Shown in pieces: positions 18,336 to 50,693 of a stretch of 53,560 bases of DNA. Position 1 is the first letter of the stretch. Every line of letters starts with the position of its first letter. Source of the DNA: Promethearchaeota archaeon (GTDB lineage: Archaea > Asgardarchaeota > Lokiarchaeia > Sigyniarchaeales > SOKP01); contig JAUVNS010000023.1 in the NCBI GenBank assembly GCA_030599585.1, forward strand, positions 1 to 53,560, written 5' to 3'. Both the position numbers and the translations under genes were made by a program. Under the pieces are notes generated by a model, which was given only the letters and a program-made list of their open reading frames with translations, was not told the DNA's origin and searched no databases.

Positions 18336-19186
18336 CTTTTTCCATAATATAATTTGTTAATAAATACAAAAATTACCATAACTCCTACGCAAATAAGAGT
18401 CGAATTACTTACTGTCGTTGATAACACACCGTACATGAACGATTCCACCAAAAGAATCGCTCCTAACATGCCAAATAAAATAATTAAGCCGAAAATTGCG
18501 AGCTGTCCCGCGTTTTCTTTTGAAGTTCGATACGAAATGTTGTCTTTTAGCGATCCTGAAACTGTAATTCTTCCCCTCGACTTCTGCTCTAGCTTTTTTT
18601 TGATTGTTTTCAGGTGTAAAATCTTTTCAAACGCGTTTTTATCGAATTGATTTTCGAGTTGTATCTGGAGGGCTTTCTCCTCGTATTTAAACCGTTGCAT
18701 TAATATCGGGCTAAACATATTGTCGCCTTTTCTCTTTCTATAGCGCCCACCCGAAAGAAAAGAAAACATAGATATGTTCCGGTTTGAATTAAAAGCGTCT
18801 GCGTTTATCTTCTCGTGTAAATTAGGAATTTCTAATTTCCGGAGCTCGTAATACGTCTCAATTACGGTTTTTACTTGTCCGAGGTTAATATTTCCTTTCC
18901 GTTTTAAAAATAAAAGTTCTATCTGAGAAAGTTTTTCTATCCATTCGAGCTTGAACACGATTATATCGAAGTTAAGCGCAAATATGTTGTTTACAAGTTT
19001 CATGTATTCAAAAATATTCTCCCCCGCTTCTTTATTTCTCGACCGTAACCCTAACTTGATTCCGATCTCGTCCACAGCGTTGCTTACGAACACGAAACTA
19101 ACTACTGCCAGCTTTTTGTAATTACCCGAATCCTTGCATAGTTGGATCAGCCGTCTTAACTTTAAATCTAACACTTGTTCGCTCAT
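18332..19186 (-). CDS. Membrane protein (helical N-domain + 2 C-terminal TM helices)
   Basis: C-terminal hydrophobic segments. 4-nt overlaps with both neighbours. Confidence 0.7.
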   Translation of the reverse strand: MSEQVLDLKLRRLIQLCKDSGNYKKLAVVSFVFVSNAVDEIGIKLGLRSRNKEAGENIFEYMKLVNNIFALNFDIIVFKLEWIEKLSQIELLFLKRKGNINLGQVKTVIETYYELRKLEIPNLHEKINADAFNSNRNISMFSFLSGGRYRKRKGDNMFSPILMQRFKYEEKALQIQLENQFDKNAFEKILHLKTIKKKLEQKSRGRITVSGSLKDNISYRTSKENAGQLAIFGLIILFGMLGAILLVESFMYGVLSTTVSNSTLICVGVMVIFVFINKLYYGKR

Positions 19187-19933
19187 TTTTTACCCCTCGT
19201 TTCCAAGAAATCTTCGTATATCAGCTCTACTTCGTTTTTAACGCCTTTTTTGCGCTTGACTCGAGAAGATTCGAGTTCTAATTCTTCTTGGGCTATTAAA
19301 TTGTCTAAATCGAACGGTTCCTTTGCGTTTGCAATGTACGCCTTTACCATCTTTTCGGGAGTTGATTGCTCCTTTTCGAAAGTGCTTACTACCGAATGGT
19401 TAAACAACGTATACGGAAAAGTACACCCGAAAGAAATTACTTGAAGCCAATATCCAGGACCAAGGGAGTAATACAAAGTAAGTTCTAATTCGTAATCGTA
19501 ATAGACCATAAAAGGATAATATAAGTCGTTTGGCAATAGAAAAAACAACGGGAACACCAAGACAAAAAAAACCAACCAACGTCACCAACGAGAGAGTAAT
19601 AAAGCCAAACCTTTTAACTTTTACCAAGTCATCTCCTTTTTCTACGTCGTGAAAAAGTGTTGAATAGGCAGAAAGGAAAATTATTATTACAAGAATTATC
19701 GCGATGACAACGGGCATAGTAGCGTTCTGAGGTTGGTAATGGCTATTAAACGCGTTTGCTTCCGTAAACGGAGTGCTCCACCCGAACAGAACGTTGTAAA
19801 CCCACGAGGTGATGGTCGCTCCGCTATCGAGTACTCCTTGAAAGTAATACCAATCCAAAAAAACGGAGGCAAAACTAAAGATAAGGCCAACTAAAAAAAT
19901 TATTTTATATCCTGATTTTATATTTATCGACAT
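19183..19933 (-). CDS. Multi-pass membrane protein split by a +1 frameshift in a T8 run (about 249 aa if corrected)
   Basis: Removing one T from GGTTTTTTTTGTC (A8 at 19564-19571) joins ...LVTLVG-FFVLVFPLFFLLP... into a continuous TM helix. Confidence 0.7.
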
Positions 19934-48474: not shown

Positions 48475-48852
48475 ATGATCAAAGCGCCTGATTCTAAAAC
48501 TTCGCGAAGCATTAAATGTTCCATCTGTCGATCCGGGATTAAAGACCTCCGAACAATGTATCAATCAAGTTTAAAATTGGGAGTAATCTGTAAAGTTTGT
48601 CGGGAGCGATTCTCTGAAGAAGATATCGAGATGATCGTAAACCTTTTTTTTGCCTTTGGTGGATATTTCGGACAATTCGACAAATCCGACTTTTCCATGG
48701 ACGAAACAATCTTCGAATTTGCTGAAAAGTTAAGCGCAGGTAATTCTACTTTTCACGCCCAGAACGTGAAGATGTGGCACAAAATATTAACGCACGGCAT
48801 CGTCCCTAAAGAGTTTTTAGAAGAACTCTCTGTTATAGCGGAACAAGAGTAA
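48475..48852 (+). CDS. Zinc-binding hypothetical protein
   Basis: CSIC...CKVC. Confidence 0.7.
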   Translation: MIKAPDSKTSRSIKCSICRSGIKDLRTMYQSSLKLGVICKVCRERFSEEDIEMIVNLFFAFGGYFGQFDKSDFSMDETIFEFAEKLSAGNSTFHAQNVKMWHKILTHGIVPKEFLEELSVIAEQE

Positions 48853-49348: not shown

Positions 49349-49364
49349 TTTTTTTCTTTAAATA
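49349..49364 (+). promoter_or_regulatory. Pyrimidine-BRE class promoter of radA
   Basis: TTTTTTTCTTTAAATA. Confidence 0.6.
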
Positions 49365-49423: not shown

Positions 49424-50693
49424 ATGTCAGACTTAGACCAGGTAAAATCAATTAACGCTCGACAGATTAAACTGCTCCAAGAAAGCGGAATTAGCACGGC
49501 AGAAGCCCTTGCAATGTCTCCAAACAATATCGTTTCGGAAATCGACGGATTAGGCGATAAAACGGCGAAGAAATTAATTTGGAACGCAAGAAACGCCCTT
49601 GGAATGACGGAGTTCACAACTGCTGACGATATCGACGAGAACACCGAATACATAACCACCGGTTCTTCTGGACTAAACAAGATTTTAGGTGGCGGGTTCC
49701 AAACGGGAAAACTTACCGAGGTATACGGTCCTTTCAAAAGTGGAAAGACGAATTTGGCCCATACCATTGCGGTAACCATCCAACTTCCAAAGAAACAAGG
49801 AGGTTTGAGTTCGGCTGTAGCCTATATTGACACTGAAAACACGTTTGCTAAGGAAAAGATTAAAAGGATCGCAAAACGTTTCGGGCTCGATCCGAAAAAA
49901 GTTCTGTCCCAGATTTTTCACGCCAGAATTTATTCGTCAGACCATCAGATGCAAATGATTCAGAAGGCAGAGACGCTATGCAAAACTCGAAACGTGCGAT
50001 TAATCGTGGTAGACAGTTTAATGGCCCTAATGAGGGCAGAATACGTAGGAATTGGTATGTTAGCTCGTCGTCAAGGCGTTTTAAACAACATGATTCACGG
50101 TCTTTCTCGAATTGCAGAGACTTACAATTGCGGAATTCTTCTAACAAATCAAGTTTCGGTCAAGATGATGGGTATGTTCTCAGGAAACGACGCCATTGGG
50201 GGAAATAGTGATGTGACACTTCGTCAATCGCTTCTAAATCGTAGCCCATGGCTGCCACTTCCGTGTCATGTTTAAGACAAAAGGATTTTCGTCCAATAAC
50301 TCGCTAAAACGGAGAGCGGTAATAGTAGACGCCCCTGACTTACCACCAGAAGAAGCGGAGTTTTATATAACGGCTGTAGGCATTGCCGACACCGAGAAAG
50401 GAGAGGTTCCGGAAGCAAAAGGGTTGGACTTCGAAGTAGAAACGCTGTACGAAGAGGAGCAAGTTGTAGGGGAGGTATCTGTTGAAGAAAGTACCGGTTC
50501 AGGAGAGTATTCCTTAATAGACGTAAAAGGAATAGGAGCCGGAATGGCAAAGAACCTTATTAAAAACGGCGTTGCTTCGGTTGACGCCTTAATTGAATCC
50601 GATCCCGAACAACTTGCCTCCAAGATTAGTGGAATCTCCTCCAAAATGATAAATGATTGGCAAGCAAACGCCATTGCTCTTATAAACGCTTAA
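49424..50693 (+). CDS. radA: RadA/Rad51-family recombinase, join(49424..50206,50238..50693), 412 aa, with extra C-terminal HhH domain
   Basis: HhH N-domain, GPFKSGKT, YIDTENTF, LIVVDSL, LLTNQV. The spliced junction gives AIGGN-IVAHGCHFRVMFKTKG...RRAVIVDAPDLPPEEAEFYITAVGIAD. Confidence 0.92.
50207..50237 (+). other. 31-nt BHB-type (tRNA-endonuclease-type) intron in radA
   Basis: AGTGATGTGACACTTCGTCAATCGCTTCTAA. Central helix GGAA(50201-04):TTCT(50232-35), bulges AT|A(50205-07) and AA|A(50236-38), inner stems GTGAT:ATCGC and TGAC:GTCA. Removal restores the frame and the conserved motif. Confidence 0.88.

What the first reader, a model, noticed from the sequence alone, without database searches (positions are those of the whole stretch)
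50192..50252. Frameshifting 31-nt bulge-helix-bulge intron in the radA mRNA
Seen: radA is split into two frames at the conserved GGN|IVAH motif, which follows ssDNA-binding loop L2. Deleting 50207-50237 gives GGA AAT ATC GTA GCC CAT (GNIVAH) and a complete 412-aa RadA. The region folds as a BHB: 4-bp central helix GGAA:UUCU, two 3-nt bulges AUA and AAA (both ending in A), an intron stem GUGAU:AUCGC plus UGAC:GUCA, and exon-exon pairing GG:UC and GCCAU:AUGGC. Established: archaeal splicing endonuclease EndA cuts after the second nt of each bulge. That puts the cuts after 50206 and after 50237, exactly the boundaries deduced independently from the protein. Archaeal mRNA introns are established for only a few genes, such as crenarchaeal cbf5, and I do not know of one in radA or in Asgard archaea. 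The intron ends in TAA in the exon-2 frame, and unspliced mRNA gives a truncated 283-aa protein. Inference: splicing may act as an on/off switch for the recombinase, conceptually like the 26-nt XBP1 intron.
Basis: partly seen in the sequence, partly recalled or inferred. Interest (0 to 1): 0.95.

Follow-up and report, generated by a model that had tools for sequence, protein, structure and literature searches.

The report
tRNA-type mini-intron in Asgard radA paralogue
A 31-base insert, shaped like the introns archaea cut out of tRNAs, breaks an extra copy of the DNA-recombination gene radA in an Asgard archaeon and many relatives, so the messenger RNA very probably has to be spliced; the papers I could search report this for only two other archaeal mRNAs, and no spliced transcript was seen here.

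Summary
Deleting 50207-50237 restores a 412-aa RadA, and the bulge-helix-bulge cut sites match the boundaries set by intron-less orthologues. The same 31-nt insert sits at this site in 9 of 81 family genomes and 44 metagenome contigs (34 sequence variants). Its stems carry many compensatory changes, one pairing exon with intron. Exon 2 is under strong purifying selection in the spliced frame. The host (Promethearchaeota/Lokiarchaeia) encodes a two-subunit EndA with the broad-specificity loop, and RtcB. Best reading: an EndA/RtcB-spliced mRNA intron like that of cbf5 (0.88). Corrections: the exon-exon helix is not conserved, so the motif is the relaxed type; the gene is an accessory paralogue beside two intact canonical radA genes; most orthologues lack the intron; the single uL11 and Elf1 genes here carry similar inserts. 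The XBP1-like on/off switch is therefore unsupported (about 0.07). The scan has noted such introns before, in this genome and in many other Asgard genomes.

The parts
49424..50206 (+). Exon 1 of the radA paralogue, codons 1-261 (N-terminal HhH domain, Walker A/B, loops L1 and L2 up to GGN)
50207..50237 (+). 31-nt insert, predicted BHB-type intron; shifts the frame by +1
50238..50693 (+). Exon 2, codons 262-412 (His265 = M. voltae RadA His280; Asp292 = Asp302; acidic linker; C-terminal HhH)
50201..50204 (+). 5' (exon) strand of the 4-bp central helix
50232..50235 (+). 3' (intron) strand of the central helix
50205..50207 (+). 5' 3-nt bulge; predicted cut after 50206
   Evidence: cut rule from PMC2738675
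50236..50238 (+). 3' 3-nt bulge position (opens into a larger loop in the lowest-energy folds); predicted cut after 50237
50208..50231 (+). Intron hairpin: 50208-12 with 50227-31, and 50214-17 with 50223-26, 5-nt loop; covaries across variants
49424..50275 (+). Unspliced reading frame: 283 aa, the last 22 residues out of frame
49349..49364 (+). T-rich element ending in a TATA-like box, shared with several neighbouring genes; candidate promoter
   Evidence: seen in sequence; function inferred

Best explanation
The 31 nt are a tRNA-type (relaxed bulge-helix-bulge, HBh') intron in the mRNA of an accessory RadA paralogue of a Lokiarchaeia/Promethearchaeota archaeon. SHOWN: the insert breaks the frame; its removal restores the orthologous protein exactly; the central helix and intron stem are conserved by compensatory change; exon 2 is under purifying selection in the spliced frame; EndA and RtcB genes are present. 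INFERRED: the transcript folds, the host (alpha-beta)2 EndA cuts after 50206 and 50237, and RtcB joins the exons, giving the 412-aa protein. Unspliced mRNA gives a 283-aa product lacking the ATP-contacting His and Asp, most likely inactive. Splicing is probably constitutive, and the intron is probably a tolerated, near-neutral passenger, one of several in protein genes of this genome, that has been lost precisely and/or spread by recombination many times.
For: Boundaries from intron-less orthologues coincide with the BHB cut sites. In 30 variants the central helix is 100% paired and the intron stem 90%, with 47 cells changed on both sides against 17.8 in shuffles (0 of 500) and at most 11 in slid controls. 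In genome G093 an exon synonymous change is matched by an intron change, A-U to G-C. Three further variants found by protein search, not by my DNA pattern, are again 31 nt with 4 of 4 central pairs and 14 of 15 lower-stem pairs. pN/pS in carriers is 0.071 for exon 2 codons 262-312 and 0.003 for codons 262-270, against 0.081 and 0.039 in intron-less genes. The EndA catalytic subunit aligns to A. pernix EndA, including the loop Lys equivalent to K44; a second subunit lacking the catalytic His and RtcB are present. This enzyme type cleaves relaxed motifs (PMC6379350). The only uL11 and Elf1 genes found in this genome carry 28- and 30-nt inserts with BHB-like boundaries that many congeners lack.
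Against: No spliced RNA, circular intron or cleavage was observed. The exon-side helix is weak and not conserved. In the computed ensemble the fourth central pair competes with an extension of the intron stem (probability 0.10 against 0.84). The 44 metagenome copies were found with a pattern that fixed both ends, so their end conservation is circular; only the genome set and one search are free of that. The variants are related, so the shuffle counts overstate independence.
Confidence: 0.88

Rival explanations
1. The intron is real and its splicing is regulated (for example by DNA damage or a mating-like programme), so it works as an on/off switch for this RadA paralogue, like XBP1/HAC1. This is a sub-case of the best explanation.
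For: Unspliced mRNA loses the equivalents of His280 and Asp302, which contact ATP and the second metal ion. Length is 31 nt in all 34 variants. The suboptimal motif could make cleavage rate-limiting.
Against: Most orthologues lack it, including close relatives nested among carriers. At least 11 state changes on the tree, and carriers are not a clade (p-AU 1.3e-7). Intact canonical radA genes exist. EndA is a housekeeping tRNA enzyme that would also serve uL11 and Elf1. Any frameshifting intron gives the same on/off arithmetic.
Confidence: 0.07
2. Ribosomal recoding: the hairpin drives a +1 frameshift or a hop, and no RNA is cut.
For: No variant has a stop in the exon-1 frame inside the insert (0 of 31). 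A conserved hairpin could stimulate recoding.
Against: 29 of 31 variants have a stop in the exon-2 frame inside the insert, so the shift would have to occur at the very end. No matching take-off and landing codons restore the frame (sequence). The encoded residues vary freely and would sit inside the conserved GGN-IVAH helix. Exon-intron pairing with 3-nt bulge geometry is not needed for recoding. The conserved stem positions leave essentially one codon able to become a stop.
Confidence: 0.04
3. A DNA-level element that is precisely excised from the chromosome, or a tiny mobile element.
For: Patchy distribution with exact absence in close relatives; intron-less alleles 87-91% identical to carriers.
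Against: The insert consensus is found as a hairpin only in this gene across 161 genomes, and only twice in G000. There is no target duplication beyond one base and no terminal repeats. Pairing with the exon fits RNA geometry.
Confidence: 0.03
4. The split copies are pseudogenes, or two separately translated genes (283 aa plus 141 aa from the ATG at 50268).
For: The ATG at 50268 overlaps the end of the unspliced ORF; the gene is accessory and redundant.
Against: Codons 262-270, upstream of that ATG, have pN/pS 0.003 in the spliced frame in carriers; both exons are as constrained as in intron-less genes. The Met is conserved in most intron-less orthologues too.
Confidence: 0.03
5. Assembly or sequencing artefact.
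For: G000 has 8.9% contamination and a homopolymer frameshift elsewhere in the window.
Against: 34 different 31-nt sequences at one site in many assemblies, with compensatory changes.
Confidence: 0.005

Closest known systems
cbf5 pre-mRNA intron of Desulfurococcales and Sulfolobales (Watanabe 2002; Yoshinari 2006; Yokobori 2009, PMC2738675)
   Same: Short intron (16-44 nt there, 31 here) inside a conserved functional motif of a protein-coding gene; relaxed BHB at the boundaries; cuts between the second and third bulge bases match the protein-derived borders; host with heteromeric EndA; losses in some lineages.
   Different: Different gene and phylum (Asgard); fixed length; far patchier distribution; accessory paralogue rather than a core gene; splicing not demonstrated here.
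HVO_1309 mRNA of Haloferax volcanii (PMC7714728; PMC10485636)
   Same: EndA acts on a BHB in an mRNA.
   Different: That motif lies in the 5' UTR and the enzyme is the homodimeric type; here the insert is in the coding sequence and shifts the frame.
Non-canonical tRNA introns of Asgard archaea (bioRxiv 10.64898/2026.10.13.758758)
   Same: Same group of organisms, BHB boundaries, repeated gains, mostly two-subunit EndA.
   Different: That study covers tRNA genes only; 'mRNA' and 'cbf5' do not occur in its text.
XBP1/HAC1 non-conventional introns of eukaryotes (own knowledge)
   Same: Short frameshifting intron removed by a protein nuclease and joined by a tRNA ligase (RtcB in animals).
   Different: Cut by stress-activated Ire1 at two separate stem-loops; here one BHB hairpin, a housekeeping nuclease, and no evidence of regulation.
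Archaeal RadA / eukaryotic Rad51 and Dmc1; duplicated Asgard RadA (PMC12722695)
   Same: An intact orthologue passes NCBIfam NF003301 (331 against cut-off 259) and aligns to P. furiosus, M. voltae and yeast structures.
   Different: Below the TIGR02236 cut-off (293 against 361); variant Walker A and an extra C-terminal HhH domain; about 41-43% identical to the genome's canonical RadA copies. I did not test which published Asgard RadA clade it belongs to.

Membership tests
Archaeal BHB pre-mRNA intron (cbf5 type) | Insert interrupts a coding sequence and its exact removal restores the orthologous protein | tested here: met
Archaeal BHB pre-mRNA intron (cbf5 type) | 4-bp central helix between exon end and intron end, 3-nt bulges, cuts after the second bulge base equal to the protein-derived borders | tested here: met
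Archaeal BHB pre-mRNA intron (cbf5 type) | Intron-side helix h' conserved by covariation | tested here: met
Strict (canonical hBHBh') motif | Exon-exon helix h closing the 3' bulge | tested here: not met
   50% paired in 30 variants; pair probability 0.002 in the window copy; an alternative register shows no convincing covariation. The cbf5 introns are themselves described as unconventional or relaxed.
Archaeal BHB pre-mRNA intron (cbf5 type) | Host encodes a heteromeric EndA with the broad-specificity loop, and an RNA ligase | tested here: met
   (sequence only; G000 is a bin with 8.9% contamination)
Archaeal BHB pre-mRNA intron (cbf5 type) | Spliced mRNA exists in the cell | not tested
Archaeal BHB pre-mRNA intron (cbf5 type) | Cleavage by EndA in vitro | not testable with these tools
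   needs purified enzyme
XBP1/HAC1-type regulated intron | Two separate stem-loops, each with an Ire1 cut site in its loop | tested here: not met
   one hairpin with staggered bulges; the Ire1 motif is from own knowledge
XBP1/HAC1-type regulated intron | Condition-dependent splicing | not testable with these tools
   needs RNA from several conditions
Mobile DNA element (IS or MITE) | Copies at unrelated sites, terminal repeats or target duplication | tested here: not met
Group I/II introns or other Rfam families | Match to a covariance model | tested here: not met
   no Rfam match up to E 5; 31 nt is far too short
RadA (NF003301) | Score over the curated cut-off | tested here: met
   (intact orthologue L002); TIGR02236 cut-off not reached

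The most novel reading that the evidence does not exclude
Lokiarchaeia regulate an accessory, Rad51/Dmc1-like recombinase by conditional EndA/RtcB splicing of a frameshifting micro-intron, an archaeal counterpart of XBP1/HAC1-style control in relatives of the eukaryotic ancestor.
Probability: 0.07. Interest if true: 0.95.

Novelty: new member of a known kind. Interest (0 to 1): 0.72.

Why it matters
Reviews list two archaeal mRNAs spliced by the tRNA endonuclease, cbf5 and HVO_1309, and my searches found none in radA or in Asgard archaea. This case has unusually good comparative support (34 variants, exon-intron covariation, selection on exon 2) and gives a small, direct substrate for testing whether Asgard EndA/RtcB splice coding mRNA. 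With uL11 and Elf1 in the same genome it suggests that protein-catalysed mRNA splicing is routine in this lineage, which bears on how interrupted genes became tolerable before spliceosomal introns. It also affects annotation: truncated read-through products are deposited as RadA (TKJ26610.1, TKJ18029.1).

Tried and rejected
I did not resend it, and read laying needs its run ids, so no reads were examined. I then ran an ordinary homologue search: no intact protein was identical to a carrier's predicted spliced product (best 97.7%), and the three closest candidates traced were intron-less alleles 87-91% identical in DNA to carriers. The genome contigs pattern scan was too loose and returned mostly chance hits, with one true hit that gave the taxon. 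A genome-wide BHB-plus-ORF scan showed no enrichment over control bulge sizes, so it gives no intron count; it also missed uL11 and Elf1, whose motifs have mismatches. The energy ranking gave implausible positive values and was discarded. Searches failed (time-out, script error) and were redone. A test for co-conversion of exon flanks, as expected from homing-like spread, was negative at 10-codon resolution, with synonymous sites near saturation. An alternative exon-exon helix was not supported. The split gene at 19183-19933 is a 1-nt homopolymer slip, not an intron, and the Hef-like helicase gene is not interrupted. Rfam and the bacterial promoter/terminator scan gave nothing useful. No structure or complex prediction was run, as none bears on the question.

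Full report
1. Observation. The window has an ORF at 49424-50275 (283 aa) that follows RadA up to GGN at codon 261 and then leaves the family; the rest of RadA lies in the +1 frame up to 50693. Of the deletion lengths tried, only 50207-50237 and the equivalent 50208-50238 restore GGNIVAH and a 412-aa protein. In the 50207 register the four exon bases 50201-04 pair with intron bases 50232-35 (G-U, G-C, A-U, A-U), both bulges have three bases ending in A, and five intron pairs follow. The other register does not pair. Cleavage between the second and third bulge base is the rule used for cbf5 (PMC2738675), so structure and protein give the same borders. The motif alone proves little: a genome scan for motif plus ORF repair gives 419 hits against 381-433 for wrong bulge sizes.

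2. Host and gene. A congener's junction is identical to one in a contig titled Promethearchaeota archaeon Hel_238_bin105, and named homologues are from Lokiarchaeota/Promethearchaeota. The gene is not the housekeeping radA. G000 has two intact canonical genes on C24 and C27 and a more divergent one on C15. The window gene has a variant Walker A and an extra C-terminal HhH domain, and was found in 81 of 135 family genomes. G000 holds three copies within a repeated block of about 55 kb: C49 and C12 with the insert, C20 without. With 8.9% contamination I cannot say whether all three lie in one cell.

3. Comparative evidence. A protein search, blind to the insert, found split copies in 9 genomes of 4 genera (11 copies), all with 31 nt at the same codon boundary. 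A pattern scan added 44 metagenome contigs, all in this gene; that pattern fixed both ends, so end conservation in this set is circular. On 30 variants the central helix is 100% paired and the intron stem 90%; 47 cells show changes on both sides against 17.8 in shuffles and at most 11 in slid registers. One stem pair occurs as G-C, C-G and U-A. In G093 the synonymous exon change GGA to GGG is matched by a U-to-C change in the intron. The second Gly codon ends in a purine, as pairing requires, in 10 of 10 genome carriers against 24 of 33 intron-less genes, which is suggestive only. Three more variants reached through the protein database kept length 31, 4 of 4 central pairs and 14 of 15 lower-stem pairs. 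The exon-exon helix is 50% paired, and an alternative register shows no convincing covariation. The motif is thus the relaxed HBh' type.

4. The split genes are alive. Among 25 carriers pN/pS is 0.127 for exon 1, 0.071 for exon 2 codons 262-312 and 0.003 for codons 262-270, which lie before the internal ATG at 50268; intron-less genes give 0.169, 0.081 and 0.039. These codons are therefore translated in the spliced frame, which argues strongly against a pseudogene and against re-initiation alone. The residues encoded by the insert vary freely, 29 of 31 variants have a stop in the exon-2 frame, and no codon pair allows a frame-restoring hop, so recoding is unlikely. The insert consensus occurs as a hairpin only in this gene in 161 genomes, with no target duplication, so a DNA element is unlikely.

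5. Machinery. G000 has one EndA subunit with Tyr, His and Lys at the catalytic positions that aligns best to A. pernix EndA, including the Crenarchaea-specific loop and the Lys matching K44 (my count on the alignment); a second subunit without the His; and one RtcB. Enzymes with this loop cleave relaxed motifs (PMC6379350), which fits the weak exon helix.

6. Mechanism. Shown: frame break, exact repair, conserved pairing, selection on exon 2, enzyme genes. Inferred: EndA cuts after 50206 and 50237 and RtcB joins the exons; the intron may circularise. The junction equals M. voltae RadA His276/Ile277; exon 2 supplies the equivalents of His280 and Asp302. In human RAD51 the GNI residues of this helix pack on the DNA backbone, and H294 and D316 contact ATP and the second metal ion (PMC10192527; the mapping to human numbering is from own knowledge). 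The unspliced product is therefore very likely inactive. I put EndA-type splicing at 0.88.

7. Switch or passenger. On an exon-only tree carriers fall in at least five separate groups; parsimony needs 11 changes (15 if only losses or only gains are allowed) and a single carrier clade is rejected (p-AU 1.3e-7). Intron-less alleles nest among carriers, for example G005. The similar sequence and fixed length of all inserts point to one origin followed by repeated precise loss and/or spread by recombination; no co-conversion signal was found, so the direction is open. Following leads from earlier scan notes, I checked two other genes: the only uL11 found in G000 has a 28-nt frameshifting insert with a perfect central helix, and the only Elf1 a 30-nt stop-containing insert with three of four central pairs; many congeners lack them. 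The radA insert is thus one of several in this genome, in a redundant gene, and dispensable in most relatives. Nothing points to regulation; I give it 0.07.

8. Known systems and novelty. It works like the cbf5 intron and meets every sequence-level feature of that class; the strict BHB is not met, and the RNA-level features are untested. A 2023 review lists cbf5 and HVO_1309 as the archaeal mRNA cases; the 2009 paper notes that others were predicted but unconfirmed; a 2026 preprint on Asgard introns covers tRNAs only. I found no report for radA or for Asgard mRNAs in the searchable library, which lacks most subscription journals. This scan has noted the same kind of insert many times, including the C12 copy; those notes are leads, not support. 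Verdict: new member of a known kind, interest 0.72.

Noticed in passing
window 1-50720; G000 C12 about 11-54 kb; G000 C20 about 238-293 kb: A block of about 55 kb is present in three diverged, largely syntenic copies (about 88% and 75% nucleotide identity), with slightly raised GC (35-36% on C49 and C12 against about 32% on most contigs). It carries helicases, a TFIIB zinc-ribbon protein, a RadB-like ATPase and this RadA; on C12 and C20 it continues into genes that look like FEN1 and RPA. It accounts for a large share of the genome's duplicated ORFs. Accessory region, mobile element or co-binned strains: unresolved.
   Followed up: partly
G000 C28:32757-32730 (-), locus L296: The only uL11 gene found has a 28-nt frameshifting insert with a perfect 4-bp central helix and two AAA bulges; several congeners carry different inserts at or near this site, others none.
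   Followed up: yes
G000 C32:69782-69753 (-), locus L265: The only Elf1 gene found has a 30-nt insert with an in-frame stop inside the first CxxC; the same insert type is in 9 of the 30 loci read and absent from 21.
   Followed up: yes
G000 C32:105878-105846 (-): 33-nt insert with a full BHB (both outer helices) splitting an HPHP motif; not compared with orthologues.
   Followed up: partly
window 19183-19933 (-), near 19570: Gene split by one extra T in a T run relative to the C12 copy; probably a homopolymer error or a true slip.
   Followed up: yes
window 49349-49364 and upstream of ORF starts at 48475, 46572, 43834, 25851, 23208, 19933, 9557, 9320, 3980: Shared T-run followed by C and a TATA-like box upstream of many genes in the block; possible common promoter type. 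No statistics run.
   Followed up: partly
public proteins TKJ26610.1 and TKJ18029.1; 28 of the top 120 homologue clusters: Read-through truncated forms of the split gene are in the databases, some annotated as RadA.
   Followed up: yes
G000 whole genome: ARAGORN finds only 21 tRNA genes, many with odd intron calls, in a genome rated 100% complete; probably many tRNAs hidden by non-canonical introns.
   Followed up: no
L221 (G054:C56): An intron-less orthologue with an in-frame stop in exon-1 sequence; possible pseudogene or error.
   Followed up: no
G000 C23:69878-70060: A separate sequence 79% identical to the C-terminal HhH domain of this RadA.
   Followed up: no
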